A DNA stretch of 60,992 nucleotides, filler included, from Dirinaria sp. TL-2023a (taxonomy: Eukaryota), in the NCBI GenBank assembly GCA_051941275.1. It is 14 parts of 14 records of this genome, joined end to end, with 100 filler letters (N's around TTAATTAATTAA, not from the genome) between each part and the next. Parts side by side here need not be neighbours in the genome. Positions count along the whole stretch, not along the records: positions 43,710 to 47,961 come from JAVEBF010001879.1; positions 48,062 to 52,308 come from JAVEBF010001880.1; 12 more parts are not named here. One strand, 5' to 3'. Position 1 is the stretch's first letter, and every line of letters starts with the position of its first letter. A program made the translations under genes and the position numbers. The notes under the pieces were generated by a model. It was not told the origin of the DNA and searched no databases. It worked only from the letters and a program-made list of their open reading frames with translations. Below, piece after piece: positions 21,787 through 58,680 of the stretch.

Positions 21787-24384
21787 NNNNNNNNNNNNNN
21801 NNNNNNNNNNNNNNNNNNNNNNNNNNNNNNTTAATTAATTAANNNNNNNNNNNNNNNNNNNNNNNNNNNNNNNNNNNNNNNNNNNNCTTCTTTCCACTTT
21901 CTTCGTCATTCTGCGCGGGCCCCCAATCGATATGTAGGTTCGACGTGTTCTGCTTATCCAGAACCCTACCCCTGTTTTCCCTAGCTCTTTTGGGGATGGT
22001 ACTCTTGAGGTGAGGCAGATCTCTCAACCCAGAGTCAATTGAAGTTTGCTTCTTAAGCATGTAGCAACAGCATGCTATCACCGTAGCAATAGTTCTGTCT
22101 CTATACACATCGACATGCGCATCCGTTCTCTCGAATCATACAGACGATGTCATGACTGTGACATGATCACATTCTCAACGAACATTTCGAGGTCAGAGCT
22201 CATTGAAGAGATGAGATCTCAAAAGATCAACTCGTCGCCGTCATTATATGTCTCGCCCCGCAGTAGCAATGAATGCTACTGTTTCGCGATATCTGTAGAG
22301 CTGTCGCTATGACAGACCGATCATGTCTTGCAAGAGATTCCGTCTGCTACACTCACGTCGGCAGTGTAGTTCGGTCGTCTCTTACTAATCAAGCTCTTAT
22401 CCCCTCTAGTGCTAGGACGATACCACATTCACAGTTACCTTCACACTCAGTAGCTGCTTCGGGTCTCAGTACGAATGAGATAGTCATCTAGAGGTTTCTT
22501 CGCCCTCGCCGCTTCGCTCTCGCCGGAGCTGTGACGATCTCAGAGCAGATGTGAGCCCAAGGGTGTTCTGTCGCGTGTATAGATAAACGATATCACGTTC
22601 ACTGAATAATAAGTTCAGCTTCGGGTCTGAGTACGAGTCAGGTAAACAAACGCGTCGGATGGTTTTCGTATGCCAGTATCTCTTGTAGACAACTCGACAG
22701 CGTTGCGCGTTGTGAGATCATTTGGCTCTGCTGTATACCGTAGTAACAACAGGTTCGTAGCCGGCACCACGTACAGGTAGACCTCGTCGCCGACCCGTAA
22801 AAAAGGTTTAGTATTCCTTCCCGTTCCTTTTTAAATCATTGCGAAGCAAACACCCTTTTCGAAGGCCTCCGCCAGCGGAAAGTTCTGCTATAACACCTCC
22901 CCGCGTAGCACATAGTGGCCCCCTCCCGAGACTAGAAGGCACATACCTATAACCTCTTACTGGAGCTGAAGCTCAGTTATCTAAAAACTCTCTTTCTTTT
23001 TCTTAGAGAAATCATATTCGATTCAAGAGCCAGGGAATGAGATTTATGCGAGAGATCTGCATATGAAGCACGTACCAAGTAAGTACCTGCAGTACCGACG
23101 TTCCACGAAAATCTACTTGATTCACAGCTACCTCACTTACAAAACCACACTCTTGATCGCCCCAGCACCGTGCTCCAAGGAAAATGCCTAGTTCAGCACA
23201 CGTAGCGGGACTGAGAATCGTCATTGACGTTTGTCTACACCACCAAAGCGGTCTTCGATTTGGTTTCCAGAAGCCGAATGGAACTATTTTGCGCAGCTGT
23301 TGCATGGTTTTGAAGAGGCTACCTACCATAAGACTAGGTAGCCCGAAAATGTGACCATAGCAACATGGCAAGATATCGTGAACTCATTTGAATCTAAGGC
23401 TGGGATGTAGCACAGCCAAAGTTAACTCCCTATTAACTCTCTTCTTCGGAAAGCAACGTTCATGCGAAAGGGAGGGGTCACTATCGGAGAAGGTGATAGA
23501 AAAAGAGCTCCGATGTCGAGCAAAACTCAACGTGCTCTATGCATCTTACGAGTACTAGAGACCTATTAGAAGGCACGAGATATCGCAAGCCAAGACTTGA
23601 GTAATTACTTGGTCGACTAGGTGTAGCTGAAGATATTTTCGTGGTATTACTAGCAACGACTATCGTTGCCAGCACGAGCGCATCATATCTCAGGTACGTA
23701 AGGAGGTATTTGTGTAGAACAGCCACCAGATTGTATGAGAGGATATCTTAACTCTGCCTCAGTATTTTTCGGGTCCTTTTCCGGAAGAGTATTCAAATAA
23801 TTGTACTGTCAGGATTCAAGGTCTCTTTGCGGTGTTGCTTAGCGCTGAAGGTCCCAAAGATCTCCTCTTCGAACAAGCAGCTGGTGATCCAGGGTTCATG
23901 TTAATTATATGTTTCAATGAATACCTTCTCGCTGTAGCTCTTTGCTAATTGATCTTCTCATATCTGGTAAGATCATACACGGGAGCTTTGAGCTAAGCAC
24001 ATCGTGACCTCAGCTGGCTGGAGCACTTCATTACTGCTGAACGGCCACTGACTCGAAAATGCTGGCTGTTGATTTGTGGATAATATCCGCGATACGATCT
24101 GTGACTGGTCATCGAACAAGATAATGACATACGATATCCTCTGCACTGGGTCACTGGGCGTAAATGCCCTTACCATGCCTCGATTCATCCTCACTAGTGC
24201 ATGGAGTAGAATAGTACTATCACACCGTTATTAACGCGGCAAAAGGTACTACCTTCGGGAAAGTTGCATGAATCCTCCCCGATTCCTTTATGACTCCCTA
24301 CGTAGCCTGAGCCCCGCATAAGTGTCTCTATCCACCACTTCCTTCTCTACCACAATACCGATCACTAGAAACGTTACGAAAAAA

Positions 24385-31338: not shown

Positions 31339-32620
31339 GGTAGGTGGGGGGGAGGGCGTCTTGGAAGATGGTGAGGTTCTGTAGGGGAGATTTGGATAAG
31401 AATGTCTGCAAATGATGAGATATTGGGGGGTGAAAAGCGGATCGCATGCTAAGCAAGAAGGTGGGACATTCCTGTTGCCCACAGTGAAAAGCCAAAGAGG
31501 TTCTGTGGGAGATAGTCAAGCTTTCATCATTAACACGTCTAGATACTAACGCAGAGCACTTACCAGAGGACTATATTCACTTAAGCCCACTATTCGCTCA
31601 ATGCCGGTTCACTTATCTTGTATCAATTCCCGTGCTGGTAATCAACCTTTTTTTTGGATGGTTATCACTGGCTCACTATTGCACTATCCTGCTTTTTTCG
31701 GAAAATGTACGTATTCAAGCTCCTAGCATTGATTCTGAATAGCAGATGACTAGCATTTTCCGATCCTATAGGATTTTGAATGCTCTCGTGTTCACTGCTG
31801 TTCACTGCAGTTCACATTGACATTGTAGACGCTGTGGTTTCAGAGATCTTTGTCTCGACCTGGGCTCTTGTGTTCACTTCAGTATGAAATCTCCGATAGA
31901 TGGTCTAGCTTCGAAAAAAGAAGTGTGCTCAGCGAATCTGTACACGTTATCATGTCATGAGAATGACATAAGTTCCAAATCGATAAAGTGTTCGATATCC
32001 AGAGGGTAATTGTGAATAAATGTCAGAAAGATTCATGCGAGAGCCTTGAGTCTTTGACAAAGACACACTGTCTTACGATAGTTTAAGACATTTAGTACAG
32101 AGTAATATTGAGCACGAGAACTCATCAGACTGATCTTGTAACATCGTCATATGATGTGATACTCTCATTACTGTGTGCCAAGAAATTAACGATGTGTTCA
32201 ATATAATAATTAAGTTACGACGCAAAACGATCTACAGCATTAGTTTCGATCATCGAAGTTCTACGAATTGAAGCTTCATAGATGTTCCCCATGCTTTAGT
32301 GAAGATCTTAGTGATAAACTAGCATGACGCGGATCATAGTATTAGCACAACCGAGCATATTCGGGCGCGTCTTTCTATCACAACCTCATTATATCGCATG
32401 CCTCGAAGTACCAGATTGAAGTTCTCCATTATCGACAATATTGCGACTCCACAGACCTGCTGTTTAACAGAAGATCAATACTTCTAGTAGGCAAGCACCA
32501 GCTGTGAAGAAAATCTCACTTGCTCACTAGCATCTAGAACTCGCTGCGGCCCTCCAAAGTACAGAACGATCATCATTCACCTCAACGTTCTTGTAACAGC
32601 GAAAAGCATCAGCCGCAGCC

Positions 32621-32905: not shown

Positions 32906-35900
32906 GCATCAGAGTCCTCGGATGGTATTATGGAGGTATGAACGCAGAGTGTCTGGTGTGGGTATGGCGTTATTCGGGCCTCGCTGGAGTGGATGAATTC
33001 TGTTGCGAGCAATTAGACGATCTGGCTCAGAAGTATCTTCTCTGACTATCTGATGGGTTGACTAGCTCCCTGAAGATGATTTGATTCCAATGTACCTTCT
33101 TCAAGTCTTCTGACGGTCTGATTAAGCTTCTCAAGTCAAAATTCGTGCCATCAACACACGAGCACCACTGCTCAACATTGACATTTCATCGCTTATGAGG
33201 CCATTCAAATATTCTCCATACGTCCGAAGAACTACGACACACATCAGCTTTTGCCAGTATCATTATTTGCACAGATTACAGGGGAGCAGAAACGCAAAGG
33301 CAACATAGCTCTGAAACAAACTTAAGCTCATCGAAGGAGTACTGTATCTTTCTAAACCTCGGCTGGAAACCCTTCATATAACTTCCCAGTCACAGCTCAT
33401 CTTAAGTAAATGGCGTATGTCTCCAGCCGATGAGAGCTGGAAATACATCCGACCTACTCTGTAAAAGATAGCATAGATGGCTCCAACTTCTCTTGGCCAA
33501 GAGTATCATTTAATCCTGGAGGCTCAACAGCGCTTGATGTTCGACTTAAGACTCGTACCAGCTTGCTTAGCGGCTGTCCTTCAGACAGACGTTGATCTGA
33601 GGATTTTCCGAGATATTCTGTGGGAAAGTCCCGGTATGACTGCGTCATATTTGTGACTATTATATTAAGGAGGGCATGTACCAGGTGTGACGGATGGTAC
33701 CACTGTGAGGTAGCACTGGGACGGATCTTCCTATACTATCTGTGACGCTTTTTCAATAGCCGCTGTGTTTCATACATTAACCAGGTCCTTGGAGATCCAC
33801 AATGACTGGCAAAACACCAGAGACCTTACCAAAAAAGATAAATCTCACCACAGCCACATTCAGAAAAATCTGGCTCGTTGGAAATCGATCAACATGCTCG
33901 GGGAACTACTTGAAGTACGAGTAATTTCTGCGCTAGCGTGGGAAATAGGTCCATCGAATAAGATGATCGAAGATCGAAAAGAAGTGAACCGCATGTTCGC
34001 CTTCATATTCTACTGGTTTAGCTGGATTTTGATTGTATGCTTCAGCATATTCGCGACTGTGCTCTTGATATTCCTCGGATATGTTGTCGATAAGCTACTT
34101 TACGACTTCGCAAAGTCCGATCCGCGATCGGAACGTGCAAGGCGCATTTGAGATGGGCTGATAAGCACAGGCTAGAGATAGAGTGAACGAGTCGGTGAGA
34201 AAGAAATGGCAGTAAATGATAGATGTATAACGAGACTGAGGACAGAACTATGAAAGAGGCGCATCGTGACAGCCGGAGAGGAACAGATTCTCGACAATCT
34301 TAGTCTCTTCTCTGGGTGGCTCACAAAGAGTGAATGCTAAATTCCTGCTAAGTAGACAATGAACTGATCAGCGAGATAATCCGCAAAGTTATTCATTTCC
34401 GTCGCTCTCTGACGCATGTGTGACAGATGAGCATAGTCGTACTTAAGATATACAATTATTGTTAAAATTACTCACTTGAGTTTGCCTTTCGTTCGCTGTA
34501 AGAAGATCGAATCTTTCTCTGTTGCAAGTGCTGTTCCTGTGAAAAGTGATCAGCGTATAATGTGTCATATTTTGAGTGCTGACTGTCGCGATAAAGAGCA
34601 TTACTAGATAGCAGTATCTTTTGTAGTATATAAAACTGGCATTCAAATTTTCCTCCTCGGTCAATGGCCTGACATCATCGAGCCGGATCATACCCGCCAT
34701 AAATACCCACAGAGAGATTTGAGGCACCATAGGAGACAGCAAGACTTAAATCAACTTCATCAAAATGTCGGAATAAATGAACTGCCAGCAACTTTATGAT
34801 TTCTACGAAAGCAGCTCGTATGTGACCGGTCCTGGACTTACAATGTTGTTGTTCCTGGCTCCATTCGGTGGAATGTTTCTGTTATNNNNNNNNNNNNNNN
34901 NNNNNNNNNNNNNNNNNNNNNNNNNNNNNTTAATTAATTAANNNNNNNNNNNNNNNNNNNNNNNNNNNNNNNNNNNNNNNNNNNNACAGCGCCAGGTTGA
35001 CGAAATTCTTCAAGCCGTTCCATTGGCCAGTGAGATTTTATGTTCAGAGTGTCTATTACAGAAATAGATAAGTCAACTCGAGATCCTTCCAGCTCAAGAG
35101 ACGTACTGTTTGTCTGCAAACAGCTATTTTCTAGGCTGGGAATGGACTGGTCGTAGAAATCAGTGCGTCCCTCGGTCAAACGTCGCTGCTTCACCAAAAA
35201 TCCTACCATGGGTTTCGCGTTCGGCTGCGGACAGTGATTAGGGGATTGAAATTTCCTAAGAATATAACAAACTCCTTGGGGCGTCTGCTTATGATCACAC
35301 AAGCGACTCTGATTGACAGAGAGTGGATATAAATATCAATCATATCTGCGAAGTGCGAACTGGGTTGTCATTGAATCTAATCTCTTATCTAAACCTATTC
35401 ATACCTGACCCACGTCTAATTAAGGTAGGTAAGTAGGTTGTCAGCTAGACTCAGAGCACGACGGAATAATCCACTTGATCTATCTATCTTTTCAACAACA
35501 AAAGATCGATATTTTAGCTTATCTTAGATATTCGCAGCATTGTCTTCTCTCTCATTTTTCTACTCACGCAATCCTCCAACGTTCGAGCAGCAGGAAAAAA
35601 TGCGTTCGCGTTCTCAAGATCTTTGGCATAGTCCCGTTCTATGTGAGCTTGAAAATGAATGTCATCGTGAAGACAATGGAACGCGGGGCGCCGGAAAATC
35701 ACGCGTTTCAAATCTTAACCGCTATCGGATGGGTCGGACTATCTGGATGTACGCCAAGAGTAGTCGCCTCGGTGACTACAGGTACTCGGTAGGCTTTGCA
35801 GAGAACACCCGCACCCTAAGGTAGGGAGCAAATGGGCGGGTTTGGCTGATACTATTAGGTGGTCTCCCGGGCGATTTTCAGGCAACCTCACAAACTGTGG

Positions 35901-43709: not shown

Positions 43710-46528
43710 GATTCAACAAGCATGTGAGAACTGTCCCTCAATTCGACTGTGTGACGCCATCTCTCATTCGACGCGTTCTCCGATCCGAAAAAGCCGTTCA
43801 TTACGTCGAAAGTATGACGCAAATGAATAGCGATTCCTTATCTGTTCTTCTGTCGTTCATCATCCCAGAAGCCGATGATGACTTCGCAGAGCTCGACGGT
43901 TGCACAATTCTACCCCTTATGGATGGAGGACTGGGAACATTATCGCTGAGGACGGGGAACGCCCAAGCCACGAACGACCACACCTTCTTCTCCGCGAGCG
44001 CCGAGTGCCGGAGGCTCTTTTCATTCGCGCCATCATACTTCTCAGAAGACAAAGCGAACGAGGAGTTTGTGGGGAAAATTTTGGACTCTGGGCGGTTCAA
44101 TATCAAAAGGTTCAAAAAGAGTCATGTACATGTGATGTTGAAGTGCAAGAAAACTTGGGCAGCCGATACAGCATCGAAGAGGTGGCTGTTTGATTTCTGG
44201 GACTACATGAATTCGACTTCTCAAACCGCAGAGCATCCTACCGAACCAAAGGCCTTGAACCTCGAATGCCTTCAACATTTTCCACTCCTTCTTTTTCACC
44301 AAGGTTGCACAGAAACGCTGGCAAGTTTAGACTATTTTCGAAATAACCCTGCCGTTCTGAGTTCGGGTGTTGACGAACACGAGGATCTTTACACGGACTT
44401 TCCAGAGCTGGGAATTGTCGACTCTAGAACCATCCCCAAGAGCTACTGCGAGGCTGAAAAGTCCTTGTCGAGTGTGAACTCAATGAATCGCTTTTTGAAA
44501 AGCTTAGAGATTCTGGCGAGGAGAAGCGCTCAAGGCTTTACTGAATTCGTGGGATCAAAATTAAAGGAAAAGAATATCAAGGTTAGTTGGCCCTATTTTT
44601 GATTAGATTGAACCGTGCTGAATTCTGGGTGGAAGGTTTTGCGGACTATCCTCATGAGTCTCACGCTTCAGATTGCTCCCTCGCTGTGCGTCGCTACAAA
44701 TGATCTTCCCGTATGGCGGCGTATCGCGTCTAGGAATGGGTACCTGACCGCCAGGGAAGCTCTTGTGGCCCAAGATCCAGCATTCGTGGTACCATGGATG
44801 AAGGAATATCATCATTTCACAGACGGTAACAATTCGTTCCCAATTCCAACGATTGGCAGTGTGCAATTGCTAGAAGATTACGTCCTCCCAAATCTCCCAC
44901 AATGCGTCGACGAAACTACTCAAGACTCGTATATCCAACTGGTGAATGCAATACCTTATAACTCTTCGTTGAAGCAAAAGATGAACAAGAAGAAGAAGAC
45001 TCGATGTTTCATCGTCCCATTGATGGAATATCGTCTTGCAGCCGGACAGAACGGTGAACTTCGCCTCGCGTCTGCTCTTTACGATCATAGTGACGCGGTC
45101 TTTGCCGCCGCTTTTCGTTCTGAGGCTTCAGACAAGTTTTTGATGCCGGAAGTTCGCCATCACTTATCGTTCTGGCATGAAATCGGCCTTCGCCGTCGTG
45201 AGTATGGCCGATTTAAAGGGCCTGACTATCTGGCCTGCCTACACGCCCTTGAGTGCCGCTTGAACGGTCCCGCAGACCCGCATTTGGCGGCTGATACTCA
45301 GGTCGTTCTCTACCCTCTTTGCGCCAACGATAGCTCCTTGAACGAGTTAAGTCCAAACATATGGAGCGCCATAGCCAAGTTAGATATATTCCCCGTGATG
45401 TTGGTGCGGGAAAATGAGCCTGAGTATCGAAGGGCCCGAACTGAAGTGTTAGCGTTGCAAAAGAACACATTGAGCCTCGAGAACATCGTTCGACATGAAT
45501 TTGCCGCACTTTGCTGGAGCCAGACGGCCTTTGCACTTCATGAACCGTCAAGCTTGTCGATTCAAAACGGCGGATCAAAGAGTCGGCCAAACTGCGCAAT
45601 AGTGTGGGAGCATTTGATGTTTCTAGCGGAAACCGCACGGTCAATCATAGAGGCTGAAATTGAAAGCTTCGTGAACGATCTTCAGAAAACTTACGAATTC
45701 CTCCATCTCAATCTACATGAAAGCAAAGACACGTTCAGCGACACAAATGCGGCAATATGGTGGAATGCGGAGGTGACGAACTCGAATCTGATTGGTCTGG
45801 ATGTCCTTCACTCATCGTGGACCAGTCTTGAAAACCTTATATTGGACAGTCCGTGCGATGCACCGCCGCTCATGATGGTCAATGCGTTTCTGGGACGTTT
45901 CACGAGTCTGTTAAAGGAGATTGGATGCAAATCCTTATACTATCCCTCAATCGCTCTTCCCTCCTGGAATCGATCCGAAACAGCCTTTGCCGCTATACGG
46001 CAGCTGCGTGAGAAAGAAATCCTTAACGATGTGAGATTCGAGGCTGAAGGAAATGTAATCTCCGCTCACAAAGTCATCCTCGCAAGTCGATCTCTATACT
46101 GCGAGAAGCAATTCCACGGACCGTGGGCCTTTGAATCCGAAAGCAGTACGAATAACAAACCAGTCAAATTAGAAGACATGACGTACGCGACTCTCAAGAT
46201 CCTGATTGAATACTGCTACGACGATCATCTCGACTGGGCCGCTGGCATGCATGTCCAAGAGGAAGATGACTCGTCAGTAATTGCTGAGAAGCTCGATGCA
46301 TTACTCGATGTTCTTATAGCTGCCGATCGATGGCTGATGCCTGACCTGCATCTCGACGCCCATCGACAGGTGATTCGCGGCATCCGGTTCTTCGTTCGGC
46401 CCGAGAATGTCAAGCAAGTGGGAAAGGTAGCTGACGAGGCAAATGCAGAGGAATTGAGGAAGTACTGCGAAGAATATAGCATCGAAAATGCAGAGGCGGT
46501 TTTATTGGCAAGTGTGGAGGATGGATGA
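43710..46528 (+). CDS. Large sacsin-like repeat protein with C-terminal BTB/POZ domain (5' truncated)
   Basis: Two long ORFs joined in frame by intron 44582-44635. BTB motif DVRFEAEGNVISAHKVILASRSLYC...LKILIEYCY...LIAADRWLMPDL. Upstream motifs (ILPLMDGGLGTL, LRLASALYDHSDAVFAAAF, FWHEIGLR) resemble fungal sacsin-like proteins. Confidence 0.75.
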
Positions 46529-46959
46529 ATGGAGTCAACGACAACGCAGGGAATTTGCATTCTTGGCTCAATGTGTCTACTACATGAATCTGCTCCTCGT
46601 ATGCACACTCTCTATCTTCAGAATCTTGCAATAAACACAAGCACTTCATTCAGAACACTTCCTTTCCGAACGTGAAATATAGGATTCGGCCCGCGCCGCT
46701 GTGAAGTGCTTCAAAGAACCTTCTAGAGCCATTATCAGGCCGCTATTTTCGAAACGTGGGCCACGGTTGAAGGTAGCCACTGGGCCTAAATTAGGTAAAG
46801 CTTCACTATCTAAAGTGGCTAGAATTCTTTTCGATAACTTAAGGACTACCTACGGAGACTCAGCAACCATTCAGATAGATCGAAGATGTCCACTTTCCAT
46901 ACACCTAACACTTTGCGGTCCTACTGTTTTCGTGATAGCGACGTGCTTGTCTAAAGACT

Positions 46960-47686
46960 GACGAGATCCACTTCTGTTCATGCGTGTCGTACTGAGCCTT
47001 CCTATCGCAATGCGCATGGCCTTGACATTCTCAATATTCCTGTCGACAGTTTCTTTCTATAAAAACTTCATAAGATCGACTGCAAAATCTTCGACATCGC
47101 GAGCGACTTCATGAAGAGTTTCCGCGAAGGCTGAAAGTTTTACGTATAATTCGGCTGTTTTCGCGACGATAATCTGTCTTGTTTCATGGTTTCGAGTGAC
47201 GTACATCTCTTGAATGTAATGAACGAGCTCGTCAGATGGCATTTTGAATTGCAGTTGAGATCTGAGCAATCAATTCAAGAGCAAGTATTTTCAGACCTTT
47301 TATTTTGAAACGACGCGCAAGGGAAACCACTGTTGAATTTATAAGTACTTCAGGTTCGTCATCAAAGACGTGAGTTCAGTTCTCTGCAAACTCCAAAATT
47401 CTCGAAATCTACCTATATCATCAAGAGTTTCTGTAGGCGATATGGAATAACTCTCCTCATACATATACTAAAAGACCCTTCAATGCGAATACACACTTTT
47501 TTCGCCGCTGATGGATCGAATAAATAGTATCTTTGCCTCTGAACACAGCACGAGAATATTGTCTATGAGAGAACTAGATCGAGCAAGAATTATTCTGTGA
47601 GCAAAAAATTCTATTCACGTAGAAAGAAATCAAACTCTAATGTCAGAGTAATTAACGATGTTAAAAAATATCATAAAAATCAACAT
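46960..47686 (-). pseudogene. Degenerate BTB/POZ-domain gene
   Basis: Hand translation of the minus strand: FFNIVNYSDIRV*FLST*IEFFAHRIILARSS...H*RVF*YMYEESY...DDEPEVL...VVSLARRFKIKGLKILA (frameshift) ...HYIQEMYVT...RQIIV...VEDFAVDLMKFL*. BTB hallmarks (YSD, AHRIIL, YMY, FAVDL) with at least 5 stops. Confidence 0.75.
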
Positions 47687-48520
47687 GCGTTATGTCTACA
47701 GCAGAAGATATTAAAAAGATCTTTTAATCACATTGTTTTTAGATATCTCGAAATTAGTGAGAAAAGTCATTACTTTCTGCATTGTGATTTTATGAATGAG
47801 TTAAGTTGCTGAGTGCAAATAAAGCTGTCTTTATAGAATCTCGATTGAGCTTTGATTTAGTTTCTTTTATAGTGATTATTAATCTTCAGTCAAAAGGACT
47901 TTTGAGATAACTGAGAAACGACATTAATTAGTTTTTGGAGAATCGATAGTATGAACTCGATNNNNNNNNNNNNNNNNNNNNNNNNNNNNNNNNNNNNNNN
48001 NNNNNTTAATTAATTAANNNNNNNNNNNNNNNNNNNNNNNNNNNNNNNNNNNNNNNNNNNNATCTTCAACCACCTATCTATACATACATCTTCTCATTTC
48101 TAAAAAAAATAAAAGTCTCGACTGCTTACATCTCAAACGCCTCTTTCTCTCTTTCTCATTTTTTCGTATGTCTTTCAACGAGGTAAATATAAATGAAAAA
48201 ACAGAAGAAAAATTGCTTCGGTTCTCAGGATAGAATAAAATAGATTTCAAAACAGGAAGGGGGAAGGAGGGATGCATCGCTCTGCCGCGCCTGGGGTTTT
48301 TTGCTTTCTTTTTTTTTTTGGGTAGGGAGGGGGAAGGTTCATAACTTCGAGGGAGAGAGGATGTGATATATTATGAGAGATTAACATGGTTTGAGAGGGA
48401 TTGGTGAGTTCTGATGCTAGCAGACCAGACTAGTAGTAGATCGATAAGTCCAGGGGAATACCTCAGTGCATGTGATCGAACCGCTGAACTGAATAGTACC
48501 TATCTCAACTACCTTCCTAA

Positions 48521-56754: not shown

Positions 56755-58680
56755 CCCCCAGCCCCGCCTTCTTCCTCCCCGAAGAAAATCACCTCGACGG
56801 TCAGATCGTCGCGGTACCGTCTCGAGTACGGGCTCGGCAGCGTCAGCAGCGCGCAGAGCATATCCCTGTCCCGGCCGCCGAGGGCGTTGCGCACGAGGTG
56901 CGTGGCGGCGTTTTTGTCTTCGAGCACGAAGCGCTCGGCGCTGTTGGGGCTGCTAGTGGAGGAGGATGAGGAGGAGGGGCGTCGGATGGGGCCGCGTTGG
57001 CCTTGTTCTCCTGCGTCGTTTGTGGATGAGGATGAAGAGCAGGATGGTTCGACTGGGAGAGAAGGAGAGGGGCTGGTGAACCAGCTTTTTGGCCAAGAGG
57101 AGGAGGATGATGATGGTGATGGGAATTTGGTTTTGGTTTTGCTGTTGAGGGTCGGTTGGGATTCGAGCCATTGGCCCACGAGCCCGACGACTTCTTCGTT
57201 CGTCAGGAACTCCCACAGTCCGTCTGTGGCCATGACGACGAAGTCGCCCCTCTCGGGCTCCATTTTCGTCGTCGTCACCACCGGTTCGGCGGTCACGTAC
57301 GGAGGGGTGCGGAGCAGGGCCGAGGGGGTCCGGCCTAGGAAATGGGTCTTGATGCGTTCTTGCGTCTCTTTGCTCCATTTGTAGGATGCGTCGCCGAATG
57401 CACGGCTTGGTTCCAGGCTGCCTAGGATTCGCCCGTTTCGCACCACGTAGGGCTCGTTCGGGTGCTCGGATTGCAGCCGGGCTTCTTCGGACGGTGTGCC
57501 GCCTGTTTGGTCTTCGGAGAGCGCGGTCGCGGTCCATTTCCCGTTCGCGCTTCGCCGGCCTAGCACCGCTCGGGAGTCGCCCGTGCATGCTACGCGGAAG
57601 AGTTTGGATCGACTATCGTAGAAGGAGAGGAGGGCGCAGGATCCGGAGAGCGCAGGGGCGAGCAACTCCGCGGCTGCGCGTTTGCTGTCGCTTTTGATCA
57701 CTTTTTCTACGCTTTGATGGACGATTTCGTGGTCTAGGCGGATGAATCCCTTCTTGATGGCTGTATCGATGGCTTCGGGTGGGGGGATCGGGATGGTAGG
57801 ATTGGCAAGGGCGGTTTTGTATGTTTGGTTTAGCTCTCGAGCCACGAAGGAGATGAGGACCTGGCGGAGCTTTGCTGATGTGGGCCATCCACTATATGGG
57901 CTGTCAATTTAGCAGTCACGCAATAACATTTTTAACCCACCTGTGGCCGTCAAAGACCCCCCAGAACATCCAGTCACTGCTCGTTGAGCCATCTTGACTT
58001 GGCGTCACCGATTGCGGTACCTCCACTATCTTCTCGGCATGATCATCCTCTATTGGATTGTTGCTTGGTATTTGAACAACATCGTATCGGACTACACCTC
58101 TTCCTCGCCCGACAAGATATGACTCCTCGTTACGCCTTAACCGCTCTGTAGCTTGATCGGGCGTCAGCATCTCCAATTGTTGTTGCCGTTGTGCATCCGT
58201 CTCTTTCGACAGAGGGGCGGCATCGGAGATGTCATGGGTGTAGAACTGATCGTCCTCTACCACCAACGCCTTCCTCTGAGGGACCGGCTCTTCGCCTCCA
58301 GCAGGTACTGATGACGTCGCGGCCGTAAACACAGGATCGGCGATACCATATGCTCCAGCTTTCTGGTGCAAGCCAGGGCTGTACACTTCACTCGAAGCGG
58401 TCGCGCTGTTGACCAAGGCCGCCTTTTCAGGCTTCGAGTCGCCTATGTAGTAATAGGCTCCAGAAGCGATAAGAGAGAGTAGGGCACCGACGGAGAAGCC
58501 ACGGAGGTACATCGAAGATTGTAAAATTTGGGACAAACCATGGTTTCTAATTGTTGAAGAGACTGGTCGCTGTCCGATCCCATGGTTCGCGGCGGAGACG
58601 TGGATGGCTCGGGGAGCGAGGATCCTGCGGACTGGGGCGCGTCGAGCAGTGCGAAAGGCTTGCACAGCTGCTCGACGCAT
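56755..58680 (-). CDS. PTC5: Mitochondrial PP2C / pyruvate dehydrogenase phosphatase (3' truncated)
   Basis: Arg-rich presequence MRRAAVQAFRTARR; SNNPIEDD, FWGVFDGHS|GW (intron 57892-57940), CTGDSRAVLG, LEPSRAFGD, ATDGLWE, RRYRDDLTV. Confidence 0.93.

What the first reader, a model, noticed from the sequence alone, without database searches (positions are those of the whole stretch)
47541..47894. CC/GG-free tracts: candidate RIP-like mutator with CpC rather than CpA target context
Seen: 47541-47894 (~354 nt) contains no CC or GG dinucleotide by manual reading, while CA and TG remain common. At roughly 30% GC, about 16 would be expected by chance. Similar depletion occurs on other contigs (32041-32280; weaker at 34320-34635 and 22040-22400). 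Established: canonical RIP (Neurospora type) converts CpA to TpA and depletes CA/TG, which is not the pattern here. Inference: this fungus may run a repeat-silencing C-to-T process, possibly RID/DIM-2-type methyltransferase-linked, that prefers CpC. Standard TpA/CpA RIP indices would miss it.
Basis: partly seen in the sequence, partly recalled or inferred. Interest (0 to 1): 0.75.

Follow-up and report, generated by a model that had tools for sequence, protein, structure and literature searches.

The report
CC-targeted hypermutation of a gene relic
A 360-letter stretch with no CC or GG is the worst-hit part of a dead gene that this fungus has riddled with C-to-T mutations aimed at C-before-C, a target unlike the textbook fungal repeat-mutation defence and invisible to its standard tests.

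Summary
Window 47537-47896 (360 nt, 30% GC) has no CC or GG, against about 15.5 expected. None of 400 composition-matched simulations reached that length (longest 248). The tract is the saturated core of a zone of about 1.06 kb (46900 to the contig end at 47961). In this genome's lineage only, that zone took a burst of C>T/G>A changes. In the alignable flank (46900-47347), polarised with three related contigs, 12 of 29 C-before-C sites changed against 10 of 152 other C sites (Fisher p=7e-6). The neighbouring gene and spacer were spared. The minus strand of the zone is a dead BTB-domain gene. Intact homologues have Pro/Gly/Trp where the relic has Ser (TCN), Asp/Glu (GAN) or TGA stops: 11 of 12 changed codons fit CpC>TpC. 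Orthologous contigs in three related organisms carry G/C where the window has A/T (about 100-120 places against 40-70 the other way). Related fungi carry kilobase-scale CC/GG-free tracts, one a Ty3/Gypsy relic, with CpA as second-choice target. Classical RIP indices score the tract as normal DNA. Repeat dependence and the enzyme were not tested. This scan has noted the same signature at least nine times on other DNA of this genome. Four searches of the held papers and the passages read in eight papers turned up no CpC-dominant RIP.

The parts
47537..47896 (.). Saturated core: a 360-nt run without any CC or GG (GC 30%)
   Evidence: 0 against about 15.5 expected; 0 of 400 simulations. All 6 of 6 Pro/Gly codons of the closest homologue that fall in the tract are changed.
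46900..47536 (.). Partly mutated flank. CC/GG observed/expected falls from about 0.9 to 0.33-0.62 towards the contig end.
   Evidence: gradient; window-lineage C>T/G>A at 12 of 29 CpC sites and 10 of 152 other C sites in 46900-47347. By-eye reading of the alignment finds 4 places in 47348-47459 where L002 has CC and the window TC.
46874..47671 (-). Relic of a small BTB-domain gene; the frame read from 47959 has 9 in-frame stops between residues 97 and 362
   Evidence: translation with X at stops. P0004 E=1.4e-36, 75% identity, on residues 97-198. P0018 E=3.1e-34, 81% identity. (alignments); tblastn places P0004 at 47366-47668 and P0018 at 46874-47206.
47396..47635 (-). Degraded BTB/POZ domain of the relic; overlaps the left 99 nt of the tract
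   Evidence: PF00651 E=0.0043, 17.7 bits, below the 20.5 cut-off; 4 of 6 homologues with a BTB match pass the cut-off (23.7-43.2 bits).
46529..46899 (.). Unmutated spacer between the two convergent genes; marks the left edge of the mutated zone
   Evidence: 0 of 89 C/G sites changed C>T/G>A on the window lineage.
44615..46528 (+). Intact BTB-domain gene (637-aa ORF); unmutated internal control
   Evidence: BTB E=8.5e-13; 8 of 471 C/G sites changed in 45449-46528 (CpC 1 of 78); not a close paralogue of the relic (best E=2.1).
32045..32286 (.). Second CC/GG-depleted tract (1 against 15.7 expected), centre of a depleted zone of about 1 kb (31522-32572)
   Evidence: Origin not identified (no Pfam hit in six frames).
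34400..34637 (.). Third depleted tract (2 against 17.5 expected), near the contig end at 34885
   Evidence: A weak AlkZ-rel hit (E=0.0055) lies on the minus frame at about 34399-34605. No homologue found.
22030..22237 (.). Fourth depleted tract (3 against 20.7 expected; GC 43%)
   Evidence: No Pfam hit.

Best explanation
The tract is the most heavily hit part of a zone of about 1.06 kb (46900 to the contig end at 47961). In the lineage of this genome the zone went through one or more bursts of cytosine-to-thymine mutation on both strands. The mutation strongly preferred a C that is followed by another C (CpC>TpC, read as GpG>GpA on the other strand). The zone covers a small BTB-domain gene on the minus strand, now dead with nine in-frame stops, and about 290 nt upstream of it.

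The most likely agent is the fungal premeiotic repeat-induced point mutation (RIP) machinery, a RID/DIM-2-type cytosine-methyltransferase-like enzyme, in a lineage where the preferred base 3' of the target is C, with A as second choice.

Shown here: the depletion, the lineage-specific direction, the CpC context, which C of the pair is hit, the sharp left boundary, the gene relic, and the same signature with a CpA second tier in transposon relics of relatives.

Inferred: that the process is repeat-induced and premeiotic, and which enzyme does it. Also inferred is the trigger, either an unseen duplicate of this gene or spill-over from a mutated repeat beyond the contig end.
For: (1) Depletion beyond chance.
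(2) Direction at the DNA level. With L003=L007=L002 taken as ancestor, the window lineage has 31 changes in 46529-47459, of which 22 are C>T/G>A, all at 46903-47337. The sister lineage has 15 changes, of which 4 are C>T/G>A. The tree assumption is supported by identities of 95.7% (window-L003), 92.2% (window-L002) and 91.1% (L003-L002).
(3) Context. In 46900-47347, CpC 12 of 29, CpA 3 of 48, CpG 2 of 53 and CpT 5 of 51 sites changed (Fisher p=7e-6, odds ratio 10). The sister lineage in the same region has CpC 0 of 15 and other contexts 2 of 145. The neighbouring coding region has CpC 1 of 78. The spacer has 0 of 89.
(4) The 5' C of the pair is the target. Only 2 of 22 transitions have a C on the 5' side. 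Changed prolines became TCN, TTT or CTC.
(5) Orthologous contigs laid from 4 runs of 3 studies. Divergence is 2.2% in 43710-46645 (X15, 65 of 2936) but about 10% in 46733-47874 (116 of 1142). Places with window A/T against relative G/C, compared with the reverse, number 102 against 40 (X15), 123 against 69 (X17) and 122 against 54 (X19). X1, whose laid pieces reach only to 47197, shows 47 against 34. In X15's first 40 listed places (43749-45289) I counted 11 against 20, so the excess lies downstream.
(6) Protein level. Against P0004, of 24 differences 15 are explicable only as homologue>relic C>T/G>A, 5 only as the reverse and 4 as neither. Against P0018 the counts are 16, 1 and 3 of 20. Of 19 Pro/Gly/Trp codons in the two homologues, 12 are changed in the relic. 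Eleven of those 12 are now TCN/TTT/CTC, GAN or TGA as CpC>TpC predicts. In the tract 6 of 6 are changed and in the flank 6 of 13. P0018 is 92.8% identical to L003/L007 but 82.0% identical to the window.
(7) Link to repeats, in relatives. L003 1-6058 has 6 CC/GG against 127 expected at 20% GC. It carries colinear weak RT_RNaseH_2, RT_RNaseH and Integrase_H2C2 hits in one frame, that is a Ty3/Gypsy relic.
(8) Continuing mutation in relatives. L003 and L007 differ at 4.3% in this tract (53 of 1220; 47 transitions at CpA 24, CpT 13, CpG 10, CpC 0) but at 0.9% in the coding part.
Against: No repeat was demonstrated for this tract. The 60-kb window holds only one copy. Each relative laid a single contig over the tract. 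No whole genome is held, so duplication cannot be checked. RID/DIM-2 were not looked for.

In the flank 10 of 22 transitions are not at CpC. One conserved Gly became TGA by a transversion. The roughly 225 nt of the tract upstream of the relic (47672-47896) have no identified origin.

The per-site table was cut after 40 of 392 rows, so DNA-level contexts inside the tract itself were not seen. Inside the tract the evidence is at codon level only. The homologous proteins are cluster representatives of unnamed origin and could be paralogues rather than orthologues. The three other tracts of the window were not polarised. The five CC/GG-free tracts of relatives amount to only two genomic regions in two or three closely related genomes.
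Confidence: 0.72

Rival explanations
1. This is a local hypermutation cluster made by a deaminase that does not depend on repeats. Candidates are an AID/APOBEC-like enzyme or damage to transiently single-stranded DNA, and the event happened to strike this locus.
For: No second copy or adjacent repeat was seen for this tract. The mutated unit looks like a single-copy gene in relatives.
Against: The specificity lies in the base 3' of the target (C). The 5' base of the 12 CpC hits is G4, T4, A3, C1, read. Recalled knowledge: APOBEC-type enzymes read the 5' base and DNA methyltransferase-type enzymes read the 3' base. C>T and G>A changes are interleaved along the zone and not strand-coordinated. 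The same signature covers kilobases of a Ty3/Gypsy relic in relatives and keeps accumulating there. Earlier notes of this scan report it on several transposon families of this genome; I did not check those.
Confidence: 0.13
2. RIP is the agent, but the BTB relic itself was never duplicated. The zone is spill-over from a heavily mutated repeat lying just beyond the contig end.
For: Depletion rises steadily towards the contig end (CC/GG observed/expected 0.51, 0.38, 0.52, 0.62, 0.33, 0.08). The contig breaks 65 nt after the tract. In relatives, the first 200 nt of gene next to the Gypsy relic carry 7 of the sister lineage's 14 C>T/G>A changes in 45449-46528.
Against: The left edge of the zone (first polarised change at 46903, none in 46529-46899) falls at the 3' end of the relic's reading frame (46874). 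That fit suits the gene as the mutated unit. The three relatives carry the locus without such mutation. What lies beyond the contig end in this genome is unknown.
Confidence: 0.3
3. The tract is a chance or compositional quirk of AT-rich non-coding DNA, picked out because many windows were read.
For: The window-wide CC/GG ratio is already below 1 (0.85-0.88). Each of the three lesser tracts alone is only borderline.
Against: 0 of 400 simulations reach 360 nt. The depletion is derived and lineage-specific with a CpC-specific rate. It falls on a coding relic whose homologues keep Pro/Gly/Trp. Other AT-rich stretches of the window are not depleted.
Confidence: 0.02
4. The pattern is a sequencing or assembly artefact, such as cytosine deamination damage in the source DNA or a chimeric contig.
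For: The assembly is highly fragmented (contigs of about 4 kb). No run held more than 41% of the sampled words, so the source reads were not inspected.
Against: Damage would not be confined to 1 kb, would not prefer CpC tenfold and would not stop at a gene boundary. The rest of the contig differs from relatives by only about 2-4% with a balanced spectrum. Independent public assemblies of relatives show the same signature.
Confidence: 0.02

Closest known systems
Repeat-induced point mutation (RIP) of Neurospora crassa and other Pezizomycotina (RID- and DIM-2-dependent)
   Same: Clustered C:G>T:A transitions on both strands. Specificity is set by the base 3' of the cytosine. Boundaries are sharp. 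Stop codons are created and genes killed. Relics become AT-rich after repeated rounds. Transposon relics are affected (shown in relatives).
   Different: The preferred context is CpC, with CpA only second. Papers seen as passages describe CpA as the dominant target (PMC2621366, PMC3897900). That CpC is the least used context in Neurospora is recalled, not checked. The tract scores as un-RIPed on TpA/ApT and (CpA+TpG)/(ApC+GpT). Repeat dependence, premeiotic timing and the enzyme were not tested here.
RIP-affected AT-rich regions reported in lichen-forming fungi (Cladonia rangiformis, PMC12542154; Xanthoria, bioRxiv 10.1101/2025.11.25.690456; Endocarpon pusillum, PMC3897900)
   Same: TE-derived blocks of about 16-20% GC with sharp borders next to genes, as in L003/L007/L011.
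   Different: In the passages I read, those papers call RIP by GC content or by RIPper/Margolin indices. Their main texts contain neither 'CpC' nor, for Cladonia and Xanthoria, 'dinucleotide'. Their supplements were not read. Endocarpon repeats give canonical indices (1.47 and 0.70). The tracts here give only 1.08-1.16 and 0.62-0.77 despite 13-20% GC.
APOBEC3G-type editing of CC in retroviral DNA (recalled, not from a call)
   Same: C>T hypermutation that removes CC/GG dinucleotides.
   Different: APOBEC3G deaminates the 3' C of CC, so the 5' base decides. Here the 5' C is hit and the 3' base decides: 2 of 22 transitions have a 5' C, and Pro becomes TCN rather than CTN. Here both strands of genomic DNA are affected.
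TpCpG-targeted hypermutation of repeats in Pucciniomycotina/Microbotryum (recalled, not from a call)
   Same: A RIP-like repeat hypermutation with a non-CpA context in a fungus.
   Different: That process targets a different trinucleotide (TCG) in a different phylum. CpG is among the surviving contexts here (CG observed/expected 1.3-3.5 in the heavy tracts).

Membership tests
RIP (repeat-induced point mutation) | Clustered, nearly exclusive C:G>T:A transitions confined to a bounded segment | tested here: met
   22 of 31 window-lineage changes are C>T/G>A, all at 46903-47337. 0 of 89 sites changed in the adjacent spacer and 8 of 471 in the neighbouring gene. At codon level, 31 differences point forward and 6 point the reverse way, of 44.
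RIP (repeat-induced point mutation) | The target is duplicated DNA (repeat-induced) | not testable with these tools
   No whole genome is held. Only one copy exists in the 60-kb window. In relatives the signature covers a Ty3/Gypsy relic, which fits this feature but does not show it for this tract.
RIP (repeat-induced point mutation) | CpA is the preferred dinucleotide context (canonical Neurospora type) | tested here: not met
   CpC 12 of 29 against CpA 3 of 48. In the tract CA/TG observed/expected is 1.1-1.2 and TpA/ApT is 0.78. CpA appears as the second tier only in saturated tracts of relatives (24 of 47 transitions).
RIP (repeat-induced point mutation) | Specificity is determined by the base 3' of the mutated C | tested here: met
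   The 3' base is C in 12 of 22 transitions, although CpC makes up only 29 of 181 C/G sites. The 5' base of the 12 CpC hits is G4, T4, A3, C1.
RIP (repeat-induced point mutation) | Dependence on RID and/or DIM-2 and premeiotic timing | not tested
   No genome to search and no experimental data. A look-up of earlier notes for RID/DIM-2 returned only the hypermutation notes.
RIP (repeat-induced point mutation) | Positive classical indices (TpA/ApT >0.89 and (CpA+TpG)/(ApC+GpT) <1.03, thresholds as quoted in PMC3897900; stringent RIPper thresholds >1.15, <=0.75 and composite >0, as quoted in PMC7882544) | tested here: not met
   Tract: 0.78, 1.43, composite -0.66, the same as ordinary contigs of the window. 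The heavy tracts of relatives pass the lenient thresholds in 5 of 5 cases. Only 1 of 5 (L003 1-6000: 1.16, 0.74) passes all stringent ones.
AID/APOBEC-type editing | Target preference set by the base 5' of the deaminated C; strand-coordinated clusters | tested here: not met
   No preference at the 5' base. C>T and G>A changes are interleaved along the zone.
BTB/POZ domain proteins (the relic's gene family) | Match to PF00651 above the gathering score | tested here: inconclusive
   The relic scores 17.7 bits against a cut-off of 20.5. Its closest homologue P0004 (75% identical) scores 23.7, and P0008, P0009 and P0014 score 34.5-43.2. The relic is therefore a degraded member.

The most novel reading that the evidence does not exclude
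Lecanoromycete-type fungi run a two-tier repeat mutator. A first activity, absolutely dominant, converts C-before-C and removes every CC/GG. A slower canonical CpA activity follows. The two tiers may correspond to two enzymes (RID-like and DIM-2-like) with different reading of the 3' base. The first tier also strikes low-copy genes such as this BTB family member. It would then silently prune gene families while remaining invisible to every CpA-based RIP detector.
Probability: 0.3. Interest if true: 0.8.

Novelty: new variant of a known kind. Interest (0 to 1): 0.66.

Why it matters
RIP is recognised in genomes almost entirely through CpA-based indices. Its dinucleotide preference is assumed to be CpA, with CpG in a few lineages.

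A lineage in which CpC is the first target has three consequences:
- Lightly mutated genes and young repeats are missed by RIPCAL/RIPper-type scans. This tract scores like normal DNA.
- Nature offers a specificity variant of the RIP enzyme. Comparing RID/DIM-2 of these fungi with Neurospora could show what sets the preference for the base 3' of the target, which is an open mechanistic question.

This locus adds a site-by-site, polarised measurement at an orthologous gene locus. It gives a rate per context, not only a depletion.

Tried and rejected
- Whole genome: none is held. Genome-wide dinucleotide scans, repeat alignments and a RID/DIM-2 search were therefore impossible.
- Shared repeat among the four tracts: self-blastn of the 14 contigs found only poly-A/T matches.
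- A relative's DNA for the tract itself: L001-L011 align to the window only up to 47347 (L003), 47366 (L007) or 47459 (L002). Sensitive blastn gave only E>=0.018 scraps. Purine/pyrimidine-coded alignment scored 86 against a shuffled maximum of 89, so it was uninformative. A 22-letter motif from the relatives' sequence just past 47874 matched 0 of 11 loci.
- Read laying printed only 40 of 392 differing places, all before 45290, so contexts inside the tract were not seen. X1's laid pieces stop at 47197, and I draw nothing from that lack of cover.
- Plus-strand frame of the tract (no TAA in 186 codons): no Pfam hit. Dropped once the minus-strand BTB frame was found.
- Word-indexed protein searches: near-length for the relic found none; the homologues are all under 220 aa and came. 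The minus frame of the 34400-34637 tract found none.
- Relic as a recent duplicate of the neighbouring BTB gene: rejected (best BLASTP E=2.1).
- Pfam on six frames of the other three tracts: only a weak AlkZ-rel hit (E=0.0055).
- Literature: searches 'repeat-induced point mutation'+'CpC', +'lichen', 'RIP'+'CpC'+'Lecanoromycetes', 'CpC'+'TpC'+'RIP'+'transposable' and 'RIPCAL'+'CpC'+'dominance' turned up no CpC-dominant RIP. For most papers I saw only listings and abstracts.
Full report
OBSERVATION

The window is 14 whole contigs of about 4.2-4.3 kb, sorted by length and joined by N spacers. It contains no CC or GG (5.7 + 9.8 = 15.5 expected from its own base composition at 29.4% GC). CA (20 against 16.7) and TG (22 against 19.8) are not depleted, TA is low (0.70), and TC (1.59) and GA (1.37) are raised. 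The full run is 47537-47896, 360 nt. The next longest runs in the window are 134 and 109 nt.

The background CC/GG ratio of the window is 0.85-0.88. I simulated sequences that keep each 100-nt block's composition, including the tract's low GC, and the window-wide dinucleotide odds. The longest run averaged 116 nt (maximum 248), and 0 of 400 simulations reached 360.

A likelihood segmentation finds three further tracts:
- 32045-32286, 1 against 15.7 expected
- 34400-34637, 2 against 17.5 expected
- 22030-22237, 3 against 20.7 expected

Each alone is borderline. Four such segments never arose in 150 simulations (mean 0.08). Other AT-rich stretches are not depleted. The depletion therefore marks a subset of tracts.

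WHAT SURROUNDS THE TRACT

On the plus strand, 44615-46528 is an intact 637-aa ORF with a BTB domain. CC/GG observed/expected is 0.7-1.0 up to about 46860. It then falls to 0.51, 0.38, 0.52, 0.62, 0.33 and 0.08 towards the contig end. The tract is thus the end point of a gradient about 1 kb long and not an isolated island.

RELATIVES, AT THE DNA LEVEL

No genome is held for the window.

Public runs hold close relatives, at most 41% of sampled words. Contigs of four runs from three studies were laid on the contig. Three of them (X15, X17, X19) carry the gene and the tract on contigs that fit up to 47874. For X15, divergence is 65 of 2936 (2.2%) in 43710-46645 but 116 of 1142 (about 10%) in 46733-47874.

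| Run | Window A/T where the relative has G/C | The reverse |
|---|---|---|
| X15 | 102 | 40 |
| X17 | 123 | 69 |
| X19 | 122 | 54 |
| X1 (laid pieces end at 47197) | 47 | 34 |

In X15's first 40 listed places (43749-45289) I counted 11 against 20, so the excess sits downstream. The per-site table was cut after 40 of 392 rows, so contexts inside the tract were not visible. By eye, just beyond the tool's aligned part, two relatives read CC where the window has TC at 47890-47891. That is an anecdote only.

A metagenome scan with the BTB ORF gave 11 related loci. L003 and L007 (95.7-95.9% identical to the window in coding sequence) align up to 47347 and 47366. L002 (92.2%) aligns up to 47459. I took sites where L003 = L007 = L002 as ancestral.
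- Window lineage, 46529-47459: 31 changes, of which 22 are C>T or G>A, all between 46903 and 47337.
- Sister lineage: 15 changes, of which 4 are C>T or G>A.

Window-lineage C>T/G>A changes by context in 46900-47347:

| Context | Sites changed |
|---|---|
| CpC | 12 of 29 |
| CpA | 3 of 48 |
| CpG | 2 of 53 |
| CpT | 5 of 51 |

The contrast of CpC against the other contexts gives Fisher p=7e-6 with an odds ratio of 10. The controls are clean. The sister lineage in the same region has 0 of 15 CpC and 2 of 145 other sites changed. The spacer 46529-46899 has 0 of 89. The neighbouring gene (45449-46528) has CpC 1 of 78 and other contexts 7 of 393.

Only 2 of the 22 transitions have a C on the 5' side, so the 5' C of the pair is the one mutated. 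C>T and G>A changes are interleaved, so both strands were hit. In the 112 nt where only L002 aligns (47348-47459), I read four places where L002 has CC and the window TC (by eye, not polarised).

WHAT THE TRACT WAS

Reading all six frames with X at stops, the minus frame from 47959 gives a weak BTB/POZ match at 47396-47635 (E=0.0043, 17.7 bits, below the 20.5 cut-off). A profile-free search of 1.8 billion representatives with this frame found 13 proteins. The best was P0004 (115 aa, E=1.4e-36, 75% identical) on residues 97-198. A word-indexed search added P0018 (E=3.1e-34, 81%) on the C-terminal part. Four of the six homologues with a BTB match pass Pfam's cut-off.

The zone 46874-47671 is therefore the relic of a small BTB-domain gene on the minus strand, convergent with the intact gene. 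It is not a close paralogue of that gene. It has nine in-frame stops between residues 97 and 362. The remaining roughly 225 nt lie upstream and have no identified origin.

CODON-LEVEL TEST INSIDE THE TRACT

| Homologue | Differences | Only homologue>relic by C>T/G>A | Only the reverse | Neither |
|---|---|---|---|---|
| P0004 | 24 | 15 | 5 | 4 |
| P0018 | 20 | 16 | 1 | 3 |

The two homologues together have 19 Pro, Gly or Trp codons in the aligned parts, and 12 are changed in the relic. Eleven of the 12 are exactly what CpC>TpC/GpG>GpA predicts: Pro>TCN four times, Pro>TTT, Pro>CTC, Gly>GAN four times and Trp>TGA. The exception is one Gly>TGA, a transversion. In the tract 6 of 6 are changed and in the flank 6 of 13. 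None shows the products expected if the 3' C were hit (Pro>CTN with a non-C third base, Gly>AGN, Trp>TAG). P0018 is 92.8% identical to L003/L007 but 82.0% identical to the window, which again places the excess change on the window's side.

THE SAME SIGNATURE IN RELATIVES, AND ITS SECOND TIER

The related loci hold kilobase-scale tracts of 13-20% GC almost free of CC/GG:
- L003 1-6058, 6 against 127 expected
- L003 11421-13080
- L007 1-1699 and 7256-8632
- L011 274-2886

These amount to two genomic regions in two or three closely related genomes. L007 1-1640 is identical to L011, and L003 is 95.7-98.6% identical to them. In these tracts CA/TG is 0.54-0.81, CG is 1.3-3.5, GC is 1.7-2.2 and CT/AG is 1.1-1.5.

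One frame of L003 1-6000 carries colinear weak hits to RT_RNaseH_2 (1.3e-5), RT_RNaseH (7.8e-4) and Integrase_H2C2 (1.3e-3). That is a Ty3/Gypsy relic. It replaces the first 277 codons of the BTB gene in L003, L007 and L011.

L003 and L007 differ at 53 of 1220 positions in this tract (4.3%) against 0.9% in coding sequence. Of the 53 differences, 47 are transitions, at CpA 24, CpT 13, CpG 10 and CpC 0. Mutation therefore continues after CpC is exhausted, with CpA next.

CLASSICAL INDICES

The tract gives TpA/ApT 0.78, (CpA+TpG)/(ApC+GpT) 1.43 and composite -0.66. These values are indistinguishable from ordinary contigs of the window. The lenient thresholds are >0.89 and <1.03, as quoted in PMC3897900 (passages read). 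The heavy tracts of relatives pass those thresholds in 5 of 5 cases. Only 1 of 5 passes all the stringent RIPper thresholds (>1.15, <=0.75, >0; PMC7882544, passages read).

MECHANISM

The best reading is RIP-type hypermutation whose first-choice context is CpC. What fits RIP:
- transitions only, on both strands
- specificity at the base 3' of the target
- sharp borders
- gene killing
- transposon relics hit in relatives
- continued accumulation after the first target is exhausted

What is not shown is that this tract was ever duplicated, which enzyme acts, and when. The left border of the zone coincides with the 3' end of the relic's frame, which favours the gene as the duplicated unit. The gradient towards the contig end favours spill-over from a repeat beyond it. 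I cannot decide between these two triggers. A repeat-independent deaminase is less likely, because the 3' base is what is read and the strands are interleaved. It is not excluded.

COMPARISON AND NOVELTY

RIPCAL defines a CpC>TpC index but reports CpA dominance (PMC2621366, passages read). Papers on lichen-forming fungi call RIP by GC content or standard indices, and their main texts contain no 'CpC'. Their supplements were not read. Five full-text searches found no CpC-dominant RIP.

This scan's own earlier notes report the same signature on at least nine other pieces of this genome, mostly transposon relics. I did not check those notes. They agree with what I measured here on different DNA. 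They also call the organism a lichen-forming fungus, which I did not test.

VERDICT

The CpC-targeted C>T interpretation is supported. Repeat dependence and the enzyme remain open. This is a new variant of a known kind of system.

Noticed in passing
L003 1-6058, L007 1-1699, L011 274-2886 (relatives): In three related contigs the plus-strand BTB gene matches only from residue 278 onward. Its first 277 codons are replaced by a CC/GG-free block of about 6 kb at 20% GC, which carries weak colinear Ty3/Gypsy pol hits.
   Followed up: partly
L003 4780-5999 vs L007 421-1640: The AT-rich block differs by 4.3% between two genomes that are 99.1% identical in the adjacent coding sequence. Of the 53 differences, 47 are transitions, at CpA 24, CpT 13, CpG 10 and CpC 0. 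Mutation of the relic has therefore continued in both lineages, with CpA as the next target.
   Followed up: partly
window coordinates 45449-45650, as aligned to L003/L007: On the L003/L007 lineage, 7 of 14 C>T/G>A changes in the gene fragment (45449-46528) fall in the first 200 nt next to the Gypsy relic. Contexts are mixed, 2 of the 7 at CpC. This may be spill-over of the mutator into flanking unique DNA.
   Followed up: no
window 34399-34605 (-): A weak AlkZ-related hit (PF24741, E=0.0055, below the cut-off) coincides with the third depleted tract. The frame continues GC-normal to the contig end at 34885, so this tract too may be a mutated gene relic. No homologue was found.
   Followed up: partly
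window 47348-47459 vs L003/L007/L002: The region downstream of the BTB gene varies in structure among relatives. Homology to the window ends at 47347 (L003), 47366 (L007) and 47459 (L002). L007 has about 200 nt that L003 lacks before the two rejoin.
   Followed up: no
window 45721-45757: In run X15 a 37-nt piece inside the BTB gene is also matched by a contig of depth 567, against about 11 for the locus. A short high-copy sequence in that relative shares this motif.
   Followed up: no
window, around 57015-57234: The window's longest TA-free run is 344 nt. The 200-nt windows starting 56995-57035 have 0 TA against about 10 expected. The run length is not significant window-wide (18 of 400 simulations reach it).
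   Followed up: partly
L002 10381-10569 (-): A tandem low-complexity repeat that reads as YYLLFII units lies at the end of the locus.
   Followed up: no
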